Shown in pieces: positions 4,911 through 62,246 of a stretch of 64,000 nucleotides of DNA. Origin of the DNA: Candidatus Collierbacteria bacterium RIFCSPLOWO2_01_FULL_50_23 (GTDB lineage Bacteria > Patescibacteriota > Microgenomatia > UBA1400 > MFAQ01); NCBI GenBank assembly GCA_001774555.1, contig MFAI01000036.1:1488-65487 (forward strand), written 5' to 3'. The notes beneath the pieces are model-generated. The model saw only the letters and a list, made by a program, of their open reading frames with translations. It had not been told where the DNA came from and did no database searches. Both the position numbers and the translations under genes were made by a program. Numbering within the stretch: the first letter of the stretch is position 1; every line of letters starts with the position of its first letter.

Positions 4911-5455
4911 CTCCAGTAAGTAACGAGGGTGTTTAGCTGATAATCTTTGTCTTGATTATTTTCCTTCCAAGTTACTTTTACCAAAGCATAAAAAGAGAGT
5001 CGGTCGATCAACCCTCCCGCCTCCACCACACCGCATACCGGAGTATCACAGACCATATCTCTCATCACCGGTGACAAAGTGATCGTTCTGGTAAACTGAC
5101 CGACGGTTTCAGATCCGGAAACCAACGTCCACAATCCGGAATTCATCACCGGATGAAAGTCGCCTAACCCCAAAGAATTAAAGTCCCCCGCGCGGACACT
5201 CAAAAGAGCCTCCATTCCTTCCTTTGCCAACAAGTTCGCCCGGCTTCTGAGTTTATTCAAACCAACACTGTTGCTGGCCAAACTATTTGCGGACAGGCTT
5301 CCCACCACAATTACCATCATCAGCGAGATCGATACCAATATTTCCACCAAAGAAAAACCCTGCCCGCCTGCTTGCCAGCCCGCAGAGCTGTGCTCAGCAT
5401 TGCTGGCGGGCAAAGCTTGCGGCGTGTCCTGATTTGACTTAGTTGACAATGCCAT
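4907..5455 (-). CDS. Pseudopilin / minor pilin
   Basis: GFSLVEILVSISLMMVIVVG prepilin methylation motif after a ~30 aa leader. Confidence 0.65.
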   Translation of the reverse strand: MALSTKSNQDTPQALPASNAEHSSAGWQAGGQGFSLVEILVSISLMMVIVVGSLSANSLASNSVGLNKLRSRANLLAKEGMEALLSVRAGDFNSLGLGDFHPVMNSGLWTLVSGSETVGQFTRTITLSPVMRDMVCDTPVCGVVEAGGLIDRLSFYALVKVTWKENNQDKDYQLNTLVTYWR

Positions 5456-5855
5456 TTTGTTGGAAAATTACCAATTCGGTATTACCCGTTGAGGTAAGTG
5501 TTAATTGACAAGACAGGACGCAACCGGTGAGTTGACCGGTCAGGGGAGTAAAACCCCAGTTAAATGAGCTGGGACTATAAGTGATACCGGCGGGTGATTG
5601 AAAACGAGCGATCTCTCCCAAGTTTGATCTCAAGATCACTATGCCGGAAACCAGACTTATTTCATAACTCAGCTGATCTTTATTAGCGATTGCCAGTTCC
5701 CTTCCATACTGAAGTTGGCTCCTGATCTCGTCACCGGCGCTCCGAAGCTTAAAAACCGCCTGAAGTTGAGATAGGCCGGCAACACCTGCGGCCGTAACTG
5801 CAACCGTGATCGCCACGACCAATACCACCTCGAGGAAGGTGAAGCCTTTGTTCAC
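5439..5855 (-). CDS. Pseudopilin / minor pilin (GspH/FimT-like size)
   Basis: MNKGFTFLEVVLVVAITVAV class III prepilin N-terminus. Confidence 0.7.
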   Translation of the reverse strand: MNKGFTFLEVVLVVAITVAVTAAGVAGLSQLQAVFKLRSAGDEIRSQLQYGRELAIANKDQLSYEISLVSGIVILRSNLGEIARFQSPAGITYSPSSFNWGFTPLTGQLTGCVLSCQLTLTSTGNTELVIFQQNGIVN

Positions 5856-7084
5856 TTCAGAGTCGAGGTAATTTTGTAAATAGGAACAATCACTATCAAA
5901 GCCAATCCCAAAACTCCGAAGCCCAAAACAAAAATCATCGCCGGCTCGATCAACGACAAAAGATTGCGTAGGGCCACTTCAAGTTCTTCCTCGTAATAGG
6001 CCGCCAGCCTGTCAAGTGTATTACCAAGGTTTCCGGTTTTTTCGGCACCCCTGATCAATCTAGTCATGATCGAGGGAAAAAGTTCTTTTTCGAAAAAAAC
6101 TGCATCGGCCAAACTTTTTCCGGCAGTCAAATGGTCGTTGATGCGAATGCAGGCATCGCGATAAAGCGGGTTACCCAAACTCGCCGCCAAAATATCGAAT
6201 GATGAAACAACTTCCACGCCATAAATATAAAATCCACCCAAAACCCGCGAAAAACGGGCCAGGTTGTAACGAATCACCAACGGCCCCACCACGGGAAGTC
6301 TCAAACTCAACCGGCCGAGAAGCCGATCCCCGTAAGAACTTCGCGAAAAACCGATCAGCGCAACAACCGAAAGCCCGACCAGTACCAGCATCAAATACCA
6401 ATACTCGGCAAAAAAGGCAACCGTACTTGCCAGCGCCAAGGTATATCCAGGTAGTTTTTGTCCCGAACTCTGGGCAAAAAGTAAAATTTTCGGAACAATA
6501 GACACACTAATAAAAATCATCACTGCAGCCATCGCGGTGACGACAACAATCGGATAGATCAAAGCTGATCGGACCTTGCTGGCAAGTTCGTTTTCCCGCC
6601 GCAACTGCATGGCCAAATAACCCAAGCTCTCAGCCAAGGTACCACTACCTTCACCCGCACGGACGACCGCCAGATACGCTGGGGGAAAAATTTTTGGAAA
6701 ACGGGCAAAGGCCTCAGAAAGTTTCACCCCCGACTGTACTTCCAAAATAATTTTACTGATCACTCTGCCGGAACCGGTGGCGCTTTTCTGATCAACAAAG
6801 GTAGACAGGGCGTCCAAAATCGGCAAACCGGCTTTGATCATCGAAGAAAGCTGATTGGTGAAAAGGATCTTCTCCGCAACTGACATTCTTTCGTTCAACT
6901 CCCGGTCCAGCCGAATGAAAAAATTTGTCAGGATCCCAATTTCCAGGGGGTTTCGAACTCGCAGGCTAACCACCGTCAATCCCTGTTCAGAGAGCATTGT
7001 TTGGGCCTCAAGCTCCGAGCCCGCCTGCAATCGCCCGCTTTTATATTCATCACGGCTGACGGCTTTGTATTCAAATTCTGGCAT
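5852..7084 (-). CDS. pilC: Type IV pilus inner-membrane platform protein PilC (GspF family)
   Basis: 410 aa with two GspF-type repeats and three TM regions, adjacent to PilB. Sequence resembles the T2SS F-domain family. Confidence 0.88.
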   Translation of the reverse strand: MPEFEYKAVSRDEYKSGRLQAGSELEAQTMLSEQGLTVVSLRVRNPLEIGILTNFFIRLDRELNERMSVAEKILFTNQLSSMIKAGLPILDALSTFVDQKSATGSGRVISKIILEVQSGVKLSEAFARFPKIFPPAYLAVVRAGEGSGTLAESLGYLAMQLRRENELASKVRSALIYPIVVVTAMAAVMIFISVSIVPKILLFAQSSGQKLPGYTLALASTVAFFAEYWYLMLVLVGLSVVALIGFSRSSYGDRLLGRLSLRLPVVGPLVIRYNLARFSRVLGGFYIYGVEVVSSFDILAASLGNPLYRDACIRINDHLTAGKSLADAVFFEKELFPSIMTRLIRGAEKTGNLGNTLDRLAAYYEEELEVALRNLLSLIEPAMIFVLGFGVLGLALIVIVPIYKITSTLK

Positions 7085-7092
7085 ATTTTATA

Positions 7093-8796
7093 TTAGTCAA
7101 AAGTAACTCTGAGCACTTCCTCGACCGTGGTCACTCCGGCGACGACTTTCGCCGCACCGTCAAACAGCATCGTATGCATCCCATTCCTGATCGCCGCGTC
7201 CTTTATTTTTTTGGCCGTCGACCTGTCCAAAATTAACTGGCGGATTTCATCATTAATCGTAAAAAGCTCATAAAGACCGGTCCTTCCCGAGAAACCGCTG
7301 TAGTTACAAAAATTACATCCCGGCGCCACCCTCGTCTCGGCCGGAATGATCTTGGCCAACAGTTCTTTCTCGGCTGGTTCGCTGACGCTGGCCACCAGGT
7401 AATTAACGACGTTCGGATCGGTCGCTTTTGAAACAGAGCAGTGGGTACACAGCTTCCGGACCAACCTTTGGGCGATCACCAATTCAAGCGTAGACGCCAC
7501 CAAGAAAGGTTCCGCGCCCAGATCAATTAACCTGGGGATGGCTCCCGAAGCATCATTGGTGTGCAAAGTCGAAAGCACCAGGTGACCCGTCATCGCCGCA
7601 TTTGTCGAAATGCCGGCGGTATCGGCGTCACGAATTTCTCCAACCATAACAATATCAGGGTCTTGCCGCAACAAAGAACGCAAACCCTCAGCGAAAGAGA
7701 AGTTAATTTGCGGGTTAACCTGAGTCTGATTGATTCTTCTGATGTGATTCTCGACCGGATCTTCGACTGTTGAGATATTCACCTCACCGGTATTTAACAG
7801 ATTAAGCATGGTATAAAGACTGGTCGTCTTGCCTGAGCCCGTTGGCCCCGTCAGCAGGATCAATCCATGCGGTCGTGTCAAAATGCGCTTGATCGTTACG
7901 ACACTGGCCGAGTCATAGCCCAGATTTTCCAAAGAAAATTCCGGTTCGCCGCTCTCCAACAAACGGAGGACTACTTTTTCACCCTCAACGGTCGGTAGTA
8001 CCGAAACACGCAAGGAAACAACGTCCCTCTCTTCCGACTCGAACTTGAACCGGCCGTCCTGGGGTAGCCGGCTCTCATCAAGTTTCAGGGTCGACAGGAT
8101 TTTGATGCGGGCCACGATCGCCGCGTGGAGATCCTTGGGTAAAGAAATCATGTCATGCAGGACGCCGTCAATACGGTAACGGACCAAAACCAGATCTGGT
8201 AAGGCTTCGATGTGGATATCAGACGCCTCCTGGATTACCGAATACTCGAGCATTTGGTTAACCGCCTCGACGACAGAAACATCCTCAGCCAATTCCTGAA
8301 GCGTCACGTGTCCGTGCCTTTTCTTGGCTTGTTCCAGTAACTTGGTAAAGGTATCCGCCAAACTGGATTTGTATTGATGTAATCCGAATTTTATGTCTCT
8401 TTCAAATGCCAGAAAGGGGATCACCGTCAAACCGGTAACCTTGCGGATAAAGTTGATCGTCTCCAGATCTTTCGGGTCCTGCATCGCCAGACGAAGCGCG
8501 CCGCCTTCGTGGGCAAAGGGGATCACCCGTCGTTCTCTGGCCAGCTCCTCTTTTACCAAAGTGAGGATCTCCTTTGGCACCATGATCCTTTTCAGGTCAA
8601 TGTACTCGATCCCCATTGACTTGGCCATCAAATTACCCAAAACATCCTTCGCGATCAGCCTCCTGCCAATCAAGACGTCGTGCAAAGGAACGGCGAGATG
8701 AACCGCTGTTTTTTGGGCATCGTCCAGATCCTTCTCTGGGGTCAGGTTGGCCGAACGCACCAGATTGTAGATGTCAAAAAACATAGGGGCAGCCAT
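7093..8796 (-). CDS. pilB: Type IV pilus assembly ATPase PilB (GspE family)
   Basis: 567 aa with Walker A LLTGPTGSGKTTSLYT, Asp box, Walker B, His box and the tetracysteine CTHC...CNFC motif typical of PilB/GspE. Confidence 0.9.
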   Translation of the reverse strand: MAAPMFFDIYNLVRSANLTPEKDLDDAQKTAVHLAVPLHDVLIGRRLIAKDVLGNLMAKSMGIEYIDLKRIMVPKEILTLVKEELARERRVIPFAHEGGALRLAMQDPKDLETINFIRKVTGLTVIPFLAFERDIKFGLHQYKSSLADTFTKLLEQAKKRHGHVTLQELAEDVSVVEAVNQMLEYSVIQEASDIHIEALPDLVLVRYRIDGVLHDMISLPKDLHAAIVARIKILSTLKLDESRLPQDGRFKFESEERDVVSLRVSVLPTVEGEKVVLRLLESGEPEFSLENLGYDSASVVTIKRILTRPHGLILLTGPTGSGKTTSLYTMLNLLNTGEVNISTVEDPVENHIRRINQTQVNPQINFSFAEGLRSLLRQDPDIVMVGEIRDADTAGISTNAAMTGHLVLSTLHTNDASGAIPRLIDLGAEPFLVASTLELVIAQRLVRKLCTHCSVSKATDPNVVNYLVASVSEPAEKELLAKIIPAETRVAPGCNFCNYSGFSGRTGLYELFTINDEIRQLILDRSTAKKIKDAAIRNGMHTMLFDGAAKVVAGVTTVEEVLRVTFD

Positions 8797-13960: not shown

Positions 13961-14033
13961 GGAGCGGGTGAGGGGAGTCGGACCCCTGTCATCAGCTTGG
14001 AAAGCTGAGGTAATACCGTTATACGACACCCGC
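13961..14033 (-). tRNA. tRNA-Gly (anticodon TCC)
   Basis: Reverse complement reads GCGGGTG-TC-GTAT-AACGGTA-TTAC-C-TCAGC-TTTCCAA-GCTGA-TGAC-AGGGG-TCCGACT-CCCCT-CACCCGC-T-CC. Very close to canonical bacterial tRNA-Gly(UCC). T-loop TCCGACT is atypical. Confidence 0.8.
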
Positions 14034-14270
14034 TAATTCACTCGTATTTTACCAAATTTCGAGGGCAAAAAATTCGAAATAGCACTCTCGGGTTTTCTAA
14101 ACCATCTTGCCGCCACCAATCAGGAATGTTCTGTCGAGCTTCACCACCGGAAGAAAACGGTCCAAACCAACCAAGGATTTTTATATCCCTATCGCATTGA
14201 TACCTTCCGAGATAGAGATAAATACCAGGCTGAAACTTCTCGATATCAAATGCAGACTTCAGAACTTCCA

Positions 14271-14347
14271 TGGTCGGGGTGAGAGGACTCGAACCTCCGG
14301 CCTCTGCGTCCCAAACGCAGCGCTCTAGCCATCTGAGCTACACCCCG
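14271..14347 (-). tRNA. tRNA-Pro (anticodon TGG)
   Basis: Reverse complement: CGGGGTG-TA-GCTC-AGATGGCTA-GAGC-G-CTGCG-TTTGGGA-CGCAG-AGGCC-GGAGG-TTCGAGT-CCTCT-CACCCCG-A-CCA. Confidence 0.85.
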
Positions 14348-14399
14348 ATACGCCTATTTTAGCAAAGTCAGCCATGAATAGGTTAAAATATAAGGGTAT

Positions 14400-14477
14400 G
14401 GTGGGTGTAGCTTAGTTGGTTCAAAGCGCCTCCCTGTGGAGGAGGAGATCGCGGGTTCGACTCCCGTCACTCACCCA
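14400..14477 (+). tRNA. tRNA-His (anticodon GTG) with encoded G-1
   Basis: G(-1) precedes acceptor GTGGGTG, pairing with discriminator C73. Anticodon loop CTGTGGA. T-arm GCGGG-TTCGACT-CCCGT. Confidence 0.8.
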
Positions 14478-14564
14478 AAAAGGTGATATAGATTGATATA
14501 TCGGTATATACATGTCATTACACCTTGCTCGTCCAAAAAGTATGAATATATTAAGATAAATACT

Positions 14565-15368
14565 ATGAATGAAAAAGAAATTATAGGGATCATTAAAAGC
14601 ACGGTCTCTGTAGGTGTTACTGAGTCAATTGGACACAGAAGCTCAATGGAGGACACTCATCTTACAGTTACAAAACTCAATACCTCAAAAAACGATGGTG
14701 TGGAAAAATCCTTTTTTGCAGTGTTTGATGGTCACGGTGGGTCAGATGGCTCAAACCTGGCGAGAGAAACTGTTGAGGAAATAGTAATTGAAAATCTTAA
14801 CTTAGACAAACAGCCTGAGGAAGCACTGCGAGACACGTTTCACCAAATTGATAAAGGAATAGAAGATTCTGGTTTTCCATATGGATGCACCGCAGCCTCA
14901 GTTTTGTTAGAAGGAAACTCGCTAACGGTCGCAAATGTCGGTGACACCAGAGTTCTATTGATTAAACTCGGTGAAGGCGAAGAAACAGCTCAAAGGATTT
15001 CAAAAGATCATACCCTTAGTGATGAAGAAGAAGTGGAACGCGTTAAAGCTACAGGTGCTCAAATTGCAAGAGGAAGAATTATGGTTGGAAATGTCGGAAT
15101 AAACGTTGTTAGAGCTTTGGGGGATAAGTTTTTTGGTGAAGCAGTATCTGCTGACCCAACAGTATCAAAACAAATATTGGCTCCTGGTAAATACCGCGTA
15201 GTATTAGAATGCGATGGTGTTTGGCAGGCAGTCCCAGATGAAGACTTGGCGAAACTGATCACAGGAAAGAACCCTAAGGATGCAACCGAAGCACTTGTAA
15301 AAAAAGCAAATGACGATTGGGTGAATGACAACTTTACAGCGATTGTTGTAGATATTGAGATATTTTAG
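14565..15368 (+). CDS. PP2C-family (PPM) Ser/Thr protein phosphatase
   Basis: Start at MNEKEI. PPM motifs GHRSSMEDTH, FFAVFDGHGGSDGS, a later DG ... GD metal-binding region and a C-terminal D-x-DN. Low-GC (~38-40%) gene. Confidence 0.75.
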   Translation: MNEKEIIGIIKSTVSVGVTESIGHRSSMEDTHLTVTKLNTSKNDGVEKSFFAVFDGHGGSDGSNLARETVEEIVIENLNLDKQPEEALRDTFHQIDKGIEDSGFPYGCTAASVLLEGNSLTVANVGDTRVLLIKLGEGEETAQRISKDHTLSDEEEVERVKATGAQIARGRIMVGNVGINVVRALGDKFFGEAVSADPTVSKQILAPGKYRVVLECDGVWQAVPDEDLAKLITGKNPKDATEALVKKANDDWVNDNFTAIVVDIEIF

Positions 15369-15422
15369 GAATAACGGTCACATATATCTCCATCATTCTC
15401 TTTATCGCTGGCGTCGAGAAAA

Positions 15423-15505
15423 CCTCGGCCTTTCAGGCCGAGGATGAAAGACGCACTAAGGATATTTCTTCCTTGGCGAGAAACCCACGGCCTTTCAGGC
15501 CGGGG
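15423..15505. repeat. Tandem pair of near-identical GC hairpins (cctcggcc-tttc-aggccgagg and ccacggcc-tttc-aggccgggg) about 62 nt apart
   Basis: Direct inspection: two copies of a ~60 nt unit, each containing a GGCC-TTTC-GGCC hairpin, between the PP2C gene and the next ORF. No downstream U-tract. Confidence 0.45.
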
Positions 15506-15511
15506 AGTTTC

Positions 15512-15563
15512 ATTTGCGCACAAATCGGTTCCAAGAACTCATCATCAAGAACCCCAAAACACC
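15512..15563. repeat. Copy 1 of a ~52 bp direct repeat (atttgcgcacaaatcggttccaagaactcatc...gaaccccaaaacac), spanning the TTG start of ORF 15514..16290
   Basis: About 88% identical to copy 2 at 16984..17034, same orientation. Confidence 0.55.
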
Positions 15564-16290
15564 CCATAACCTTGTAGGGAGCTCCAAAAATGGTATCATT
15601 TCGAGCATGGGGAAACCAAAAGAAGCCCAAGGCACACCCGAGCAAACCACTTTCGAAAATACCCTTCAATTAAGATTCAGAGGATTAGTGCTCGACATGC
15701 TTTTTACTCGATGGCACTCGGAGGAGCTTGATCGACTGCTTGATTTATATCAAAAAGGGGATCTTGATGCTTGTTATATTCTCGGCTTCGTATCAACTCA
15801 CCATGAGGCAAAGGTATGTCCTGAGCACTATGGTGCTGGCCGAAACCTTTGGGACTACGTTACCAAAGAGATGTATCCACTACTACAAGCTAAATATGGA
15901 AACCAGGTTGGCTCGGACATATACCGGCAACTGTTCGGCTTCCTTTTTGAAAACCAAGACCTAGTAGCAGATGGAGAGCTAAACCAAACCTTGGTCCTAT
16001 CCTGGCTAAGTAGTCTCGAGGCTGCACTCGGACACATTGAACAGACTATTTTCATTTCAGCGGGTAATTCGACCAAGACTTATCTTGAATCCAAAATCCA
16101 AGAAACTGAGGCTAACGTTCAAGTCTTTAGAATCGCTCTCGTAGAAAACGGTGGGGAATTGAAAAATGGCAGAAGGGTCGATCAAGAATACATTGATGGT
16201 CTAGAAAAGAAAATTAGGTCCTACAATGAGGCGTTAAACCGTCTGAAAGACTTTCAAACAAGCGTCGGGAAAATCATTTTGGAAAGCTAA
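15514..16290 (+). CDS. Hypothetical protein (no recognisable domain)
   Basis: 258 aa ORF with a TTG start in the track; alternative ATG starts lie downstream. Low GC. No motif recognised. Confidence 0.35.
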   Translation: MRTNRFQELIIKNPKTPHNLVGSSKNGIISSMGKPKEAQGTPEQTTFENTLQLRFRGLVLDMLFTRWHSEELDRLLDLYQKGDLDACYILGFVSTHHEAKVCPEHYGAGRNLWDYVTKEMYPLLQAKYGNQVGSDIYRQLFGFLFENQDLVADGELNQTLVLSWLSSLEAALGHIEQTIFISAGNSTKTYLESKIQETEANVQVFRIALVENGGELKNGRRVDQEYIDGLEKKIRSYNEALNRLKDFQTSVGKIILES

Positions 16291-16367
16291 ATAAATTCTA
16301 CACTCATCCAGCCAGTGACCCAATAATATGATATATATTGATATATCAATGTATATCCAAATGTAAA

Positions 16368-16898
16368 TTAATTTAATTTCTTTGAGTAAAATACAGCGTC
16401 ACCGTTGCCGTAGTATTCTTTCAAAATCCCAATCTTGACGAAACCCAATTTTTCATAAAACTTATGATCTGCCGTTAGAAGAACATGGGTACTAAGGATC
16501 AGGCTTTTTGCCCCCATTTCTCTTGCAGCATTTTCGGCCATTTCTACAAGCTTCGAACCGATTCCAAGTCCGCGAGTGGAAGAGTCAACTGCTAGTACGA
16601 ACATCTCAGCTTTATTACCATCTGGCCAACTAATAGGATTTTGTTTCCCAAATAAGACAATACCTAATAACTTTCCGTCCTCATTTCTTGCTTCAAGCAA
16701 AAAACCATGCTTCAAATAATCCTTAACCTGATCGATGTCAAGCCACTCCTTAAGAGTTTGGCCTTTATTCTCCACATCGAAACTAGCCTGATCTCCAGGA
16801 GTCAATGCGTTAAAAGCGTTCTCCAAGAAACAACTTAGTTCTGTAAGACTTGGATTCTCTTGAATCTCATATTTCACCTCTTCGTTTGTAGTAGCCAT
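16368..16898 (-). CDS. GNAT-family N-acetyltransferase
   Basis: 176 aa. Acetyl-CoA binding motif A VDSSTRGLGIGSKLVEMAENAARE (R-x-x-G-x-G/A) and a GNAT-length fold. Confidence 0.75.
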   Translation of the reverse strand: MATTNEEVKYEIQENPSLTELSCFLENAFNALTPGDQASFDVENKGQTLKEWLDIDQVKDYLKHGFLLEARNEDGKLLGIVLFGKQNPISWPDGNKAEMFVLAVDSSTRGLGIGSKLVEMAENAAREMGAKSLILSTHVLLTADHKFYEKLGFVKIGILKEYYGNGDAVFYSKKLN

Positions 16899-16983
16899 TA
16901 CAACGATTATACAAGTTCAATATGTCGCTAGGCCACGTTATCCTGAAACATATGAGGGCGTAAATAACTCTCGTAATTTTGCA

Positions 16984-17034
16984 ATTTGCGCACAAACCGG
17001 TTCTAAGATCTCATCGGGAAGAACCCCAAAACAC
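16984..17034. repeat. Copy 2 of the ~52 bp direct repeat (atttgcgcacaaaccggttctaagatctcatcgggaagaaccccaaaacac)
   Basis: Intergenic between the GNAT start and the HExxH gene stop. The in-frame reading hits a stop after 6 codons, so this is a remnant or boundary copy. Confidence 0.55.
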
Positions 17035-17072
17035 TTGGCAAGGTTTAATAAATCAACTGAGGCCTGAATAAA

Positions 17073-18056
17073 CTATCGTTTTGCGGCAATAATAGTTTTC
17101 AACAAAGAGGCCTCTTGGGTACCGCTTTCCAGTAACATCGCCAGAATATCTTTGTTGAAGTGAAGAATAATCTCCTTGGCTAACTTGTTCCTAGCACCGG
17201 TTTTACCAATTCGTACATCAGCGAAAATTTCAAGCAAATTGGGGATTTCATCCCGCAAAAGAAAAAATATTTGCAGAATATGGGTGTACTCTGTAGTTTT
17301 AAAAACCGCGCTGTCATCAACCCTCAAAAAAGTCGTAATTAGCTTTGGGTCAAGACCTTGCTTAATCGCGTTAGCGGTGACAAACTTTATGCTTTCAGCG
17401 ACAAATGGATTATCAATATTCTTGATGTTTGTTGCCGTATATCCTTCGGTATATATCTCTTCTAATAGATCTTTCGACGATGACATGCTCATCTTATCCA
17501 TACCCGCCAAAACATCAATACTGTCATACTCCAATTCATCGGTTGAATTAGCTGTTTGATCAGGTTTTATCCGTATAACACCCCTCTGTCTTGAAACAGC
17601 ATGACGACATTCGTGGAACAGAACCGTCGAAACTTGAAAAATGCCAAATTGATCCAGATTCTCAGGATAAAGAACCACAACCATTCTTTCCAATGGGAAA
17701 TAATAGCCTTTTACAGTATCTTCGTCAGGAAAGAAACCTTTGCGCACGAATAACACTTTTAATTCGAACTGTCCTTCTTCGATCAATCCTTCCCCTGAAG
17801 CTTGGTGTCTAAAATATTGGACGACATCGTTACGTATGGATTGAATTTTGGGGTCAATACCATTTTCCGGAACAGCGAATTTCTCTATGTTATCTTTAAT
17901 TTCTTCTGAAATTACACGGGGCTCATGTTTGCCTACCGGTACCAACAGTCCACGCAATTCATCTCGCAACTTCGTTTCTTTGATAGCTTTATCTTTTATT
18001 TGAGGCAAGACGCCCTTATTTTGCAGTACCACATCAGCTTCAATTACAGGTTCCAT
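17073..18056 (-). CDS. Hypothetical protein with HExxH motif (putative zinc-dependent metallopeptidase)
   Basis: 327 aa with FHECRHAV (HExxH). No signal peptide. Low GC. Confidence 0.4.
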   Translation of the reverse strand: MEPVIEADVVLQNKGVLPQIKDKAIKETKLRDELRGLLVPVGKHEPRVISEEIKDNIEKFAVPENGIDPKIQSIRNDVVQYFRHQASGEGLIEEGQFELKVLFVRKGFFPDEDTVKGYYFPLERMVVVLYPENLDQFGIFQVSTVLFHECRHAVSRQRGVIRIKPDQTANSTDELEYDSIDVLAGMDKMSMSSSKDLLEEIYTEGYTATNIKNIDNPFVAESIKFVTANAIKQGLDPKLITTFLRVDDSAVFKTTEYTHILQIFFLLRDEIPNLLEIFADVRIGKTGARNKLAKEIILHFNKDILAMLLESGTQEASLLKTIIAAKR

Positions 18057-18113
18057 AATACTTAGTATATCCTCCGATTTACGTAAACCACAGGAAGAAC
18101 CCCAAAAAGCCCG

Positions 18114-18755
18114 TCAGGAAAAATCTGCCTCGACCAGACGGTTAAGAACAGCGGAATCAAGATCCGCCTTATTTACTATTTCGCCCGCATTTAACCTCAT
18201 CAGCTTCCTCCAGTTACTAACATGGGTAACCAATTTGACCCTTAGCTTTTCCATAACCAACTCCTGATTTGGCATGGCTTTCCGCGATTCCTCCGCACTA
18301 GCTCTTATGCCGGTAATCAAATGTATCCTGGCCCGGGCATTTCTACTCGTTTGCCGGCCACTACCGCCGGCATGAACACTGGCCGTGAACTGCTCCCATT
18401 TTCCGCACTCGTCATTTGTAATCCGCATTGAATCCGGATTATTTATGTATTGCATCAGCCAGTCCAGGTATTTTGTCAGCCCTGGGACTGACGGATTCTC
18501 TCCGTCCTGCTCCGATAAGTATCTCAAGATACTATCGACTTCGTCAGCTGGGGACTTTTCGTCGTTCTCTCTTCTGTCCATGGCATTATCCACTTGACCA
18601 AGACGCGCCTCTGATCCCTTGTGGATCCTTCTCCCTTTACTCCCCCAAGATTCAGCTTTCTTCTTTTTTCCACCACCGCCAGATCCGCCCCTGCCATGAA
18701 TCTTCTCATCAATAACATCAGCCAACTCATCCTCCGAAAGGCTTCTTTCTATCAT
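18114..18755 (-). CDS. Hypothetical protein with Gly-rich/Lys-rich N-terminal tract
   Basis: 213 aa. GRGGSGGGGKKKKAESWGSKGRR low-complexity segment. No recognised domain. Confidence 0.3.
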   Translation of the reverse strand: MIERSLSEDELADVIDEKIHGRGGSGGGGKKKKAESWGSKGRRIHKGSEARLGQVDNAMDRRENDEKSPADEVDSILRYLSEQDGENPSVPGLTKYLDWLMQYINNPDSMRITNDECGKWEQFTASVHAGGSGRQTSRNARARIHLITGIRASAEESRKAMPNQELVMEKLRVKLVTHVSNWRKLMRLNAGEIVNKADLDSAVLNRLVEADFS

Positions 18756-60994: not shown

Positions 60995-61043
60995 TTTATA
61001 TAGACAACTAGTAATATTTGTCTCTCACTCCACTGTAGAGTTT

Positions 61044-62246
61044 TTAGAACTGGTTTGTCAAATTGTAAATCGGCAGGATCACCGCCATGACCAGAAACCC
61101 AACCCCAATACCCATAAACACCATGATGATCGGTTCGATTGCCGTCGTTAATGCCTTCACCTTCAACTCCGACTGAGATTCATAAAACTCAGCCAGCTTA
61201 GACAAAATCTCGTCTACTTTTCCGGTTTGCTCACCGACTGCAATCATCTGCGACAGGATCGGCGGAAAATCAGAAGTGCTCGCGATCGCGTCTGCCAGGG
61301 TGGTCCCTTTTTCTACCTTCACCGCCGCTCGCCTGATTTCATCCCCATAGATCTGACTACCAAGGGTTTCTGAAACAATGCGCAAACCATCCAAAATCGG
61401 GATCGCCGCCGAAGAAAGCAGTCCCATCGTCCTGGCGAACTCGGCCAGGGTAATATCTTTTCGCAATGGCCCCCAAATCGGAATCTTAAACACCATCTGC
61501 TCTATTATCAGTCCTCCAACTTGGGAACGTGCCCAACGCCGGAAAAAAACAAGGCCGATCGCCAAACCTCCAAATAGCAGCCACCAATAATTGACCATGA
61601 AGTCAGAAATACCGATGAGGATCAGGGTGGGTGTCGGTAGCTTCGCCCCAAAATCCTTATACATCTGCGTCATCTTCGGGACGACAAAGATCATCATGAT
61701 CGTCGCCACCACCACCATCCCGATCATTACGATCGCCGGGTATATCAAGGCTCCCTTGGTTTTATTCCGGAATTCGCGCTGTTTGTCGAGCGTGTCCGCC
61801 ATTTTTCGCATGATCTCATCGAGAACTCCGGCCGACTCTCCTGCCTTTACCAGCGCGATGTAGACATTACTAAAAGTCCCCTCGGTCTTTTCCAAGGCCG
61901 ACCCCAAGGAAGAGCCTCCTTCGACCTCTGTCAGAACTTTATCAATTATCACCGCCATTTTGGGCTTGCTCTGATCTTTGAGAATTCTCAATGCGTCAAC
62001 CAGGGGTAATCCCGAAGCGATCATTGTGGACAACTGACGGGTGAAGTTGGTAATCTCTTCGAACTTTGGTTTTCCGATCGAGGAAAAAAGCTCATCAAAA
62101 ACGCTTTCGGATACCTCGCGAAGAGAGACGATGGTCAGTTTCTTACCACGCAATATCGAGGCGGCCTGAGGCAAGTTGTTGGCTTCAACCACTCCGGCAA
62201 CCTGTTTATTGCTCTCGTCTATGACCCGGTAGTTGAACCTTTTCAT
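61044..62246 (-). CDS. pilC: Type IV pilus platform protein PilC (second copy)
   Basis: 400 aa GspF-family protein with two repeats and TM helices, next to PilT. Confidence 0.85.
   Translation of the reverse strand: MKRFNYRVIDESNKQVAGVVEANNLPQAASILRGKKLTIVSLREVSESVFDELFSSIGKPKFEEITNFTRQLSTMIASGLPLVDALRILKDQSKPKMAVIIDKVLTEVEGGSSLGSALEKTEGTFSNVYIALVKAGESAGVLDEIMRKMADTLDKQREFRNKTKGALIYPAIVMIGMVVVATIMMIFVVPKMTQMYKDFGAKLPTPTLILIGISDFMVNYWWLLFGGLAIGLVFFRRWARSQVGGLIIEQMVFKIPIWGPLRKDITLAEFARTMGLLSSAAIPILDGLRIVSETLGSQIYGDEIRRAAVKVEKGTTLADAIASTSDFPPILSQMIAVGEQTGKVDEILSKLAEFYESQSELKVKALTTAIEPIIMVFMGIGVGFLVMAVILPIYNLTNQF

What the first reader, a model, noticed from the sequence alone, without database searches (positions are those of the whole stretch)
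15512..17034. About 52 bp direct repeats bracketing a two-gene cassette (unknown ORF plus GNAT)
atttgcgcacaaatcggttccaagaactcatc…gaaccccaaaacac (15512-15563) recurs at 16984-17034 with ~88% identity in the same orientation. Copy 1 overlaps the TTG start of ORF 15514..16290. Copy 2 is intergenic and hits a stop after 6 codons if read in frame. The repeats bracket a 1.5 kb segment carrying the unknown ORF and the convergent GNAT gene. This pattern is expected for a cassette inserted or duplicated by recombination (att-like or target-site duplication, or a duplicated 5' gene end), and marks a possible excisable unit inside the island.
Basis: seen in the sequence. Interest (0 to 1): 0.55.

Follow-up and report, generated by a model that had tools for sequence, protein, structure and literature searches.

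The report
Recurring junction repeat beside tRNA-His
The two 51-base repeats are real, but they are two old members of a small repeat family that recurs between unrelated genes next to the tRNA-His gene in a few groundwater CPR bacteria, not fresh scars marking one excisable two-gene cassette.

Summary
Bases 15512-15562 and 16984-17034 match at 45 of 51 positions in direct orientation, far above chance.

- The repeat (here D1) belongs to a family. There is a third partial copy at 18093-18107, three copies in Candidatus Collierbacteria GW2011_GWB1_44_6, and further copies in two or three other metagenomic lineages.
- Where a tRNA-His is in view, every copy lies downstream of it, between unrelated genes, in one orientation.
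- The two window copies are no more alike (86%) than each is to copies in other genomes (84-88%), so they were not made by one recent insertion.
- Copy 1 is not the 5' end of the unknown ORF. Homologues start near the ATG at 15607.
- The only frame open in all copies is on the minus strand (consensus WVLDDEILEPVCAQIxKLRxLF). Evidence that it codes is weak.
- A second repeat pair, D2 (14462-14510 and 16307-16355), contains the tRNA-His 3' end plus its flank. It interleaves with D1 and splits the proposed cassette.
- About 45 contigs of this population all show the same gene order, and no recombinase is nearby.

Best reading: D1 is a shared module-end or recombination-junction sequence in a serially accreted island (confidence about 0.4). 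Interest is modest.

The parts
15512..15562 (-). On the minus strand it reads CFGVLDDEFLEPICAQM. The HMM match spans 15480-15579. The conserved tail is missing, replaced by the hairpin repeats to its left.
16944..17046 (-). D1 copy 2, full-length family member. On the minus strand it reads ...CFGVLPDEILEPVCAQIAKLRELFTPSYVSG*, in frame with ORF327 after that gene's TAG stop. There is no ATG, GTG or TTG start.
18093..18107 (-). Partial third D1 copy (GGAAGAACCCCAAAA, identical to copy 2) in the ORF213/ORF327 intergenic gap.
14462..14510 (+). D2 copy a: the last 15 nt of tRNA-His plus its downstream flank, including the AT-rich palindrome GATATAGATTGATATATC.
16307..16355 (+). D2 copy b: matches D2a at 38 of 49 positions. 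It lies between the stop of the unknown ORF and the stop of the GNAT gene, and begins with a tRNA-His-3'-end-like stretch (CCAGCCAGTGACCCA).
14401..14476 (+). tRNA-His, last gene of a Leu/Arg/Gly/Pro/His tRNA cluster and the left edge of the low-GC block.
14565..15368 (+). PP2C phosphatase gene (module 1).
15415..15506 (.). Two copies of a 62-nt-period hairpin repeat (CGGCCTTTCAGGCCG core). They look like terminators when read on the minus strand and abut D1 copy 1.
15607..16290 (+). Unknown ORF (227 aa from the ATG at 15607; the TTG at 15514 is probably not the start). Rare family: 5 remote relatives among 1.8 billion representative proteins.
16368..16898 (-). GNAT acetyltransferase gene.
17073..18056 (-). 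ORF327, no Pfam family. Contains an HExxH motif (seen by eye).
18114..18755 (-). ORF213, no convincing Pfam family. Last gene of the low-GC block.

Best explanation
The two repeats are paralogous members of a small, lineage-restricted family of intergenic elements about 75-105 nt long (D1). The family recurs at the edges of unrelated gene modules in the variable gene cluster downstream of the tRNA-Gly/Pro/His cluster of Collierbacteria-like CPR bacteria.

The window's low-GC block (about 14.5-18.8 kb) was most likely built by serial accretion or replacement of small gene modules at the tRNA-His flank. Each D1 copy came with a separately acquired module or marks its edge. Recombination at D1, homologous or site-specific, is what swaps the cargo next to it.

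The D2 pair (tRNA-His 3' end plus flank) brackets PP2C, D1 copy 1 and the unknown ORF as one module. The GNAT gene, D1 copy 2, ORF327 and ORF213 belong to older module(s).

Shown here: the family, its genomic distribution, its constant orientation, its sharp recurrent homology breakpoints, and the interleaved D2 pair.

Inferred, not shown: that D1 is the actual recombination substrate, and the order of acquisition.
For: 1. Family membership. An exact 25-nt consensus hit Candidatus Collierbacteria GW2011_GWB1_44_6 and four metagenome contigs of the same locus. tblastn and nhmmer find three copies there (L017 5420-5522, 6201-6309, 7083-7188), one in L022-L029, one in L030-L032 and one in L038.

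2. Location. L017 carries tRNA-Gly/Pro/His syntenic with window 13961-14488 (79-96% identity). It then has a D2 copy and completely different cargo genes separated by D1 copies. L030 has tRNA-His, then one gene, then D1 pointing back at the tRNA, as in the window.

3. Orientation. All copies for which a tRNA-His is in view (window 2 plus 1 partial, L017 3, L030 1) lie on the strand opposite to the tRNA.

4. Age. Copies 1 and 2 are 86% identical. Copy 1 against L030 is 88%, and copy 2 against L17b is 84%.

5. Recurrent breakpoint. L038 and L022 are 100% identical over 66 nt up to ...GCTCAAAT. Identity then drops to 17 of 25, and beyond that the cargo is unrelated (His_Phos_1 gene against a 192-aa ORF). 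The similarity between window copies 1 and 2 ends at the same nucleotide.

6. D2. D2a and D2b match at 38 of 49 positions, against a shuffle maximum of 30. D2 includes the tRNA-His 3' end and interleaves with D1. GC content is 43-44% left of D2b and 39% right of it.

7. Mobile-element links. The closest homologue of the unknown ORF sits directly next to a large serine recombinase that abuts a tRNA-Glu (L033). In L017 an insertion carrying transposase-like ORFs separates tRNA-His from D2 and is flanked by an imperfect duplicate of the tRNA 3' end.
Against: - No recombinase gene lies in the island or within about 10 kb of it. No homologue of the serine recombinases of the related loci lies anywhere in the window.
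- No deletion, inversion or alternative cargo was seen in about 45 contigs of this population.
- D1 has no recognisable att or attC architecture.
- The L038 against L022 breakpoint rests on a 918-nt contig that starts inside the shared stretch. It could be a second paralogue or an assembly edge rather than an allele.
- A minus-strand open frame with some synonymous-type changes fits a coding origin or function.
- The whole source genome could not be scanned, so the copy number outside the window is unknown.
Confidence: 0.4

Rival explanations
1. D1 is a family of small protein genes of 33-44 aa on the minus strand (consensus xxWVLDDEILEPVCAQIxKLRxLF). The two repeats are simply two paralogous mini-genes, one upstream of the GNAT gene and one next to the unknown ORF. 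Some copies are decaying.
For: - One minus-strand frame is open in all 7 distinct copies over 17-24 codons.
- Gene callers recorded five of them as proteins of 33-44 aa, P0007-P0011.
- Synonymous-type codon differences are enriched: fraction 0.298 against 0.181 +/- 0.056 in column shuffles, reached by 122 of 5000 shuffles. Examples are Leu TTA/TTG/CTG and Arg CGA/AGA in the K-L-R tail.
- There are no indels in the 72-nt block.
- In L17a and window copy 1 an ATG follows an AAGG(G) stretch.
Against: - Copy 2, L17c and probably L17b have no ATG, GTG or TTG start.
- In L30 and L17c the 'N-terminus' is a terminator-type hairpin that in L030 also sits at the 3' end of tRNA-His.
- The C-terminus of copy 1 is replaced by hairpin-repeat sequence.
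- Changes by codon position are 17/9/20, not the third-position excess expected under strong purifying selection.
- Three of the six frames are open over the core, so openness alone means little.
- There are no matches in Pfam or PHROGs, and no longer protein carries the motif among 5.8 billion sequences.
Confidence: 0.22
2. D1 is a cis-regulatory module, for example an operator or promoter region insulated by an upstream terminator. It was duplicated in front of several island genes transcribed on the minus strand.
For: - All copies are intergenic.
- In sORF orientation, three copies (copy 2, L17a, L17b) end 5-45 nt before the start of a co-directional gene: GNAT, a polyprenyl-synthetase-like ORF, and ORF232.
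- A stable hairpin plus a T-run abuts the 5' edge of the core in L17a and L17c (z about -4) and in L17b and L30 (weaker).
- The core contains imperfect palindromes, TTTGCGCACAAA and GGTTCT...AGAACC.
Against: - No sigma-70-type hexamer pair lies in or next to D1 (also by eye).
- Four copies (copy 1, L17c, L22, L30) have no downstream co-directional gene and run into a terminator or a convergent gene.
- The distance to the next start codon varies from 45 to 86 nt.
- The palindromes are not maintained by compensating changes.
Confidence: 0.15
3. The two copies are the attL/attR (or duplicated target) of a single insertion, so the 1.47-kb segment carrying the unknown ORF and the GNAT gene is one excisable cassette.
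For: - The repeats are direct and bracket two genes of unrelated function inside a low-GC, tRNA-adjacent block.
- In L017, single genes (ORF154, ORF232) are likewise bracketed by D1 copies in direct orientation.
Against: - The copies are only 86-88% identical and no closer to each other than to copies in other genomes.
- D2b, a relic of the tRNA-His 3' end plus flank, lies between the two genes.
- No recombinase is present.
- No empty site or circle junction appears in about 45 contigs.
- The longest identical runs are 13 and 16 nt. By general knowledge, that is short for RecA-dependent excision.
Confidence: 0.1
4. D1 copies are functionless relics of the 3' end of a gene that once flanked the integration site. 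They were copied along with it during successive rearrangements.
For: - There is a coding-like signature without intact starts.
- Copy 2 is in frame with ORF327, separated only by a TAG stop.
- The copies decay to different extents: copy 1 lacks the tail, and the copy at 18093 keeps only 15 nt.
Against: - No full-length parent protein with this C-terminus exists among 5.8 billion proteins.
- The upstream neighbours of the copies are all different genes.
- Core identity of 84-93% between lineages whose flanks are unalignable is hard to reconcile with neutral decay.
Confidence: 0.1

Closest known systems
Tandem accretion of genomic islands at a tRNA gene, with attL/attR-type direct repeats of the tRNA 3' end
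   Same: The block is low in GC and starts at the 3' end of tRNA-His. An imperfect copy of the tRNA 3' end plus flank (D2b) lies 1.8 kb downstream. The syntenic site in a related genome carries other cargo and an insertion flanked by a duplicated tRNA end. A homologue of the unknown ORF sits beside a serine recombinase at a tRNA-Glu in another contig.
   Different: No integrase or recombinase is in or near the island. The modules are tiny (1-2 genes). D2 similarity also extends into the non-tRNA flank. No presence/absence polymorphism was seen.
Integron gene-cassette arrays (attC sites) and CALINs (attC clusters lacking an integrase)
   Same: A conserved element of 50-100 nt recurs in one orientation between unrelated one- or two-gene units. 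A sharp homology break at one end of the element coincides with a change of cargo (L038 against L022).
   Different: There is no IntI and no attI. D1 lacks the RYYYAAC/GTTRRRY cores and a long imperfect palindrome. The cargo genes lie on both strands and have their own terminators. Copies are few. A dedicated attC model could not be run here.
REP/BIME- or MITE-type short dispersed intergenic repeats
   Same: D1 is a short, intergenic, multi-copy, lineage-specific sequence, often next to terminator-like hairpins.
   Different: Only 2-3 copies occur per locus, all clustered in one variable region rather than dispersed in the 64 kb examined. There are no terminal inverted repeats and no target-site duplication. 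The core is not a stable palindrome (consensus fold about -7 kcal/mol, no covariation).
Small-ORF (mini-protein) gene families
   Same: An open frame of 33-44 codons is called as a protein in five lineages, with some synonymous-type variation.
   Different: Several copies lack start codons. The N- and C-termini are not conserved. A hairpin is encoded in the 'N-terminus' of two copies. No homologue is known.

Membership tests
Target-site duplication of a transposable element | Short (about 2-15 bp) direct repeats, identical when formed, immediately flanking an element with inverted ends and usually a transposase | tested here: not met
   The repeat is 51 nt or longer and 88% identical. No inverted repeats flank the segment. 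No transposase domain occurs in the five island proteins.
attL/attR of an integrative element | A recombinase (tyrosine or serine) encoded inside or next to the bracketed segment | tested here: not met
   Pfam scan of the island proteins. Precomputed Pfam hits on genes within +/-10 kb. tblastn with the serine recombinases of L033 and L023 against the window gave nothing better than E 0.5. Tyrosine recombinases were not searched for in the rest of the 64 kb.
attL/attR of an integrative element | One repeat overlaps the integration target (typically a tRNA 3' end) | tested here: not met
   D1 copies lie 1.0 and 2.5 kb from tRNA-His and gave no tRNA-like Rfam match at E up to 1. The other repeat pair, D2, does meet this feature.
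attL/attR of an integrative element | The two copies descend from one event, so they are closer to each other than to copies elsewhere | tested here: not met
   Copies 1 and 2 are 86% identical. Copy 1 against L030 is 88%, copy 2 against L17b is 84%, and L17a against L17b is 90%.
attL/attR of an integrative element | Presence/absence or circular forms of the bracketed segment among strains | tested here: inconclusive
   About 45 contigs recovered through four exact-protein look-ups all have the same gene order. All are 99.7% identical or more, so they represent one population. Raw reads could not be examined.
Integron cassette array / attC | IntI integrase with attI, and attC sites with R''/R' cores (RYYYAAC ... 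GTTRRRY) forming an imperfect hairpin | tested here: not met
   No integrase was found. By reading the sequence, D1 has no such cores. The consensus fold is weak, with 0 compensatory pairs. A dedicated attC covariance model was not available.
Small protein gene family | A conserved ORF with start codon and stop in all functional members, and a purifying-selection signature | tested here: inconclusive
   The frame is open in 7 of 7 copies. The synonymous fraction is 0.298 against 0.181 +/- 0.056, reached by 122 of 5000 shuffles. However, 3 of 7 copies lack a canonical start, and changes by codon position are 17/9/20.
Structured non-coding RNA (any Rfam family) | A match to a covariance model, or a conserved structure with covariation | tested here: not met
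   No Rfam match at D1 with E up to 1, nor at gathering score in L017, L022 or L030. RNAalifold on both strands gave -6.9 and -4.6 kcal/mol with 0 compensatory pairs.
REP/MITE-type dispersed repeat | Many copies scattered genome-wide; terminal inverted repeats or a stable palindrome | tested here: inconclusive
   Within the 64 kb there are only copies 1 and 2, the 15-nt remnant, and one weak match at 61036-61075. The rest of the source genome was not in the searchable collections.
Diversity-generating retroelement TR/VR pair | Mismatches confined to adenines of one copy; a reverse transcriptase nearby | tested here: not met
   The six differences are T/C, C/T, A/T and ATC/GGG. No reverse-transcriptase domain occurs in neighbouring proteins.

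The most novel reading that the evidence does not exclude
D1 is the recombination site of an undescribed, integron-like cassette-exchange system of Microgenomates (CPR). One- or two-gene modules would be inserted, stacked and swapped at a conserved site of about 50 nt beside tRNA-His. The recombinase would act in trans, for example one of the large serine recombinases seen near D1 or near the homologue of the unknown ORF in related contigs.
Probability: 0.12. Interest if true: 0.7.

Novelty: new member of a known kind. Interest (0 to 1): 0.35.

Why it matters
If D1 really is a shared module end, it gives a handle on how ultra-small CPR genomes acquire and exchange accessory genes at a tRNA-linked hotspot. 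These genomes rarely show classical mobile elements. D1 would also be a simple sequence tag for locating that hotspot in other Microgenomates. As it stands, the practical value is corrective in three ways:
- The unknown ORF starts at 15607, not at the TTG inside the repeat.
- The ORF+GNAT pair should not be annotated as a cassette.
- The tiny minus-strand ORFs that some pipelines call here should be treated with caution.

Tried and rejected
- Duplicated 5' gene end: rejected. Homologues of the unknown ORF start at about residue 35-39, and the + frames carry stops in other copies.
- Target-site duplication: rejected on length and divergence.
- DGR and CRISPR: rejected on mismatch pattern, copy number and the absence of RT or Cas genes.
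- tRNA-derived fragment: considered because D1 ends in ...ACCCCA followed by an A-run, like a tRNA 3' end, and because in L030 it abuts the same hairpin as tRNA-His. No T-arm can be drawn, and neither ARAGORN nor Rfam matches it, so it is left as speculation.
- Sigma-54 or ECF promoter: the GG of the putative -24 element is absent in most copies.
- Ancient 1.47-kb tandem duplication: a weak 36-nt match has the same offset, but the genes in the two halves are unrelated and on opposite strands.
- Full-length parent protein: two profile searches of 5.8 billion proteins found only ORFs of 33-44 aa.
- Viral contigs: two pattern scans found nothing.
- Pfam and PHROGs on the peptides and on ORF258, ORF327 and ORF213: nothing significant.
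- D1 and D2 in loci of ORF258 homologues (L033-L037): absent.
- Strain-level structural variation: four look-ups found none.
Full report
**Observation**

Bases 15512-15562 and 16984-17034 are direct repeats with 45 of 51 identical positions and a spacing of 1472 nt.
- A degenerate 25-mer built from both copies finds only these two sites in the window, against 0 expected.
- The best match of the 51-mer in 200 dinucleotide shuffles was 32 of 51.
Copy 1 overlaps the TTG of the mechanical ORF 15514-16290. Copy 2 hits TAA after six codons in that frame. The bracketed segment carries that ORF and a convergent GNAT gene.
- The last 15 nt of the repeat recur a third time at 18093-18107, in the next intergenic gap.

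**Setting**

- The repeats lie in a low-GC block (39-46% GC from 14 to 19 kb, against 53-57% on both sides).
- The block begins at tRNA-His (14401-14476), the last gene of a Leu/Arg/Gly/Pro/His cluster.
- It contains these genes:

| Gene | Strand | Pfam result |
|---|---|---|
| PP2C phosphatase | + | PP2C |
| unknown ORF | + | none |
| GNAT | - | Acetyltransf_1 |
| ORF327 | - | none |
| ORF213 | - | none convincing |

- A second repeat pair, D2, matches at 38 of 49 positions (shuffle maximum 30). It lies at 14462-14510 and 16307-16355. D2a is the 3' end of tRNA-His plus its downstream flank, including an AT-rich palindrome. D2b lies between the stops of the unknown ORF and the GNAT gene.
- D1 and D2 interleave in this order: D2a, PP2C, D1 copy 1, unknown ORF, D2b, GNAT, D1 copy 2, ORF327, D1 remnant, ORF213.

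**The repeat is a family, not a pair**

- A scan of one genome per species found the 25-mer in Candidatus Collierbacteria GW2011_GWB1_44_6 (L017). A metagenome scan found four contigs of that same locus.
- L017 starts with tRNA-Gly/Pro/His syntenic with the window (79-96% identity). It continues with an insertion carrying transposase-like ORFs, a D2 copy, and cargo genes with no similarity to the window's.
- L017 holds three D1 copies, at 5420-5522, 6201-6309 and 7083-7188.
- Profile searches of 5.8 billion proteins with the minus-strand translation found only five tiny called ORFs of 33-44 aa, and no longer protein. They led to further lineages:
  - L022-L029: D1 after a Na/Ca-exchanger gene, near a cold-shock gene that is also the right-hand neighbour in L017.
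  - L030-L032: tRNA-His, then one gene, then D1.
  - L038.
- Wherever tRNA-His is in view, D1 lies on the opposite strand to it.
- Core identities: copy 1 against copy 2 is 86%, copy 1 against L030 is 88%, and copy 2 against L17b is 84%. The window's two copies are therefore old paralogues, not products of one recent event.

**What D1 looks like**

- Compared across lineages, the unit has two parts: a 44-51-nt core (minus strand: TTTGGGGTTCTTGATGATGAGATCTTAGAACCGGTTTGTGCGCAAAT) and a less conserved tail of about 25 nt (AAAYTGAGAGA...TTT).
- Copy 2 has both parts. Copy 1 has lost the tail to a 62-nt tandem hairpin repeat at 15415-15506.
- In L17a and L17c a stable hairpin plus a T-run abuts the core (z about -4). 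In L17b and L30 the hairpin is weaker. Window copy 1 has only a weak one, and copy 2 and L22 have none.
- No Rfam family matches.
- Consensus folding of either strand is weak and has no compensatory pairs.

**Coding question**

- One minus-strand frame is open in all seven distinct copies and reads xxWVLDDEILEPVCAQIxKLRxLF.
- Synonymous-type codon differences are enriched: 0.298 against 0.181 +/- 0.056, reached by 122 of 5000 column shuffles.
- Against coding: changes by codon position are 17/9/20, and three of the six frames are open over the core.
- Copy 2, L17c and probably L17b lack a canonical start.
- The 'N-terminus' in L30 and L17c is a terminator-type hairpin. In L030 the same hairpin also follows tRNA-His.
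- Pfam and PHROGs give nothing.
- Coding is therefore possible but weakly supported. Copy 2 is in frame with ORF327 behind its TAG stop. This has a one-in-three chance of being coincidence.

**The unknown ORF**

- It has no close relatives. Five remote ones (33-43% identity) align only from residue about 39 onward.
- Most assemblies call it as 227 aa starting at the ATG at 15607.
- Copy 1 therefore lies upstream of the gene and antisense to it, not in its coding sequence.
- Its best homologue sits immediately upstream of a large serine recombinase that abuts a tRNA-Glu (L033). This hints that the ORF travels with integrative elements.

**Breakpoints**

- L038 and L022 are 100% identical over 66 nt up to ...GCTCAAAT. 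Identity then falls to 17 of 25 in the tail, and beyond that the genes are unrelated.
- The similarity between window copies 1 and 2 ends at the same nucleotide.
- A recurrent sharp break at one end of the core, with a change of neighbouring cargo, is what a recombination junction would give.
- L038 is a 918-nt contig that begins inside the shared stretch, so it may be a paralogue or an assembly edge rather than an allele.

**Mobility tests**

- Exact-protein look-ups with GNAT, the unknown ORF, ORF327 and PP2C recovered about 45 contigs from many samples and two NCBI MAGs. All have the same gene order and are 99.7% identical or more.
- No recombinase lies in the island or within 10 kb. No homologue of the related loci's serine recombinases lies in the window.

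**Conclusion**

- The repeat is real and non-random. It is one pair from a small, lineage-restricted family that marks the edges of unrelated gene modules in a tRNA-His-linked variable region.
- The most economical history is serial accretion or replacement of modules. D2 (tRNA end plus flank) brackets PP2C, D1 copy 1 and the unknown ORF. D1 copy 2 belongs to an older module with GNAT and ORF327.
- Whether D1 acts as a recombination site, encodes a mini-protein or is regulatory remains open.

Noticed in passing
window 14462-14510 and 16307-16355: Second direct-repeat pair (D2), matching at 38 of 49 positions. It consists of the tRNA-His 3' end plus its downstream flank with an AT-rich palindrome. 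It brackets PP2C and the unknown ORF and interleaves with the reported repeat. A third copy lies in the Collierbacteria locus (L017 1833-1897).
   Followed up: partly
window 15415-15506: Two copies of a 62-nt-period hairpin repeat (core CGGCCTTTCAGGCCG, found only here in the window). They look like terminators on the minus strand. Many metagenome contigs of this population begin or end between about 15400 and 15506 (L006, L009/L012, L010, L014, L016, L053), which suggests an assembly break or copy-number variation.
   Followed up: partly
window 16941-17075 (minus strand): The TAG stop of ORF327 is followed in the same frame by 44 sense codons that contain D1 copy 2. No canonical start codon lies in between. 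This could be coincidence (1 in 3) or a former C-terminal extension.
   Followed up: no
window 17073-18056 (minus strand): ORF327 has no Pfam match but contains an HExxH motif (LFHECRHAV), as in zinc metallopeptidases. A strain variant (L002) has 7-nt and 12-nt deletions at 17238-17244 and 18035-18046 that truncate it to 285 aa.
   Followed up: no
L033 698-3049: The closest homologue of the unknown ORF (43% identity in the search) lies directly upstream of a 529-aa large serine recombinase whose 3' end overlaps a tRNA-Glu. This looks like an integrative element at a tRNA.
   Followed up: partly
window 16139-16171 and 17611-17646: A weak 36-nt match (72% identity, E 0.8) has the same 1472-nt offset as the reported repeat. 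It lies inside the unknown ORF (+) and ORF327 (-). It may be coincidence or a trace of an old duplication.
   Followed up: no
window 61036-61075 (+): A D1-like stretch (28 of 32 matches with one 3-nt gap to copy 2; nhmmer E 0.017) lies in the opposite orientation, 44 kb away. It overlaps the last 9 codons of the minus-strand ORF 61044-62246. It may be chance.
   Followed up: partly
L017 915-1845: An insertion of about 0.9 kb carrying transposase-like ORF fragments separates tRNA-His from D2 in the Collierbacteria genome. It is flanked by an imperfect duplicate of about 20 nt of the tRNA 3' end plus flank.
   Followed up: partly
L030 985-1213 and 150-190: A 133-nt tandem duplication includes 22 nt of the tRNA-His 3' end and a terminator-type hairpin (AAATAAAAATCTCCCGACAAGCGAGAGATTTTATTT). 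The same hairpin also abuts the D1 copy 0.9 kb away, and it occurs at L017 copy c.
   Followed up: partly
L023, L027, L029 (about 5.5 kb from their D1 copy): A 517-aa large serine recombinase (Resolvase plus Recombinase domains) lies downstream of the D1-bearing region. A helix-turn-helix gene is present in some of these strains and absent in others.
   Followed up: no
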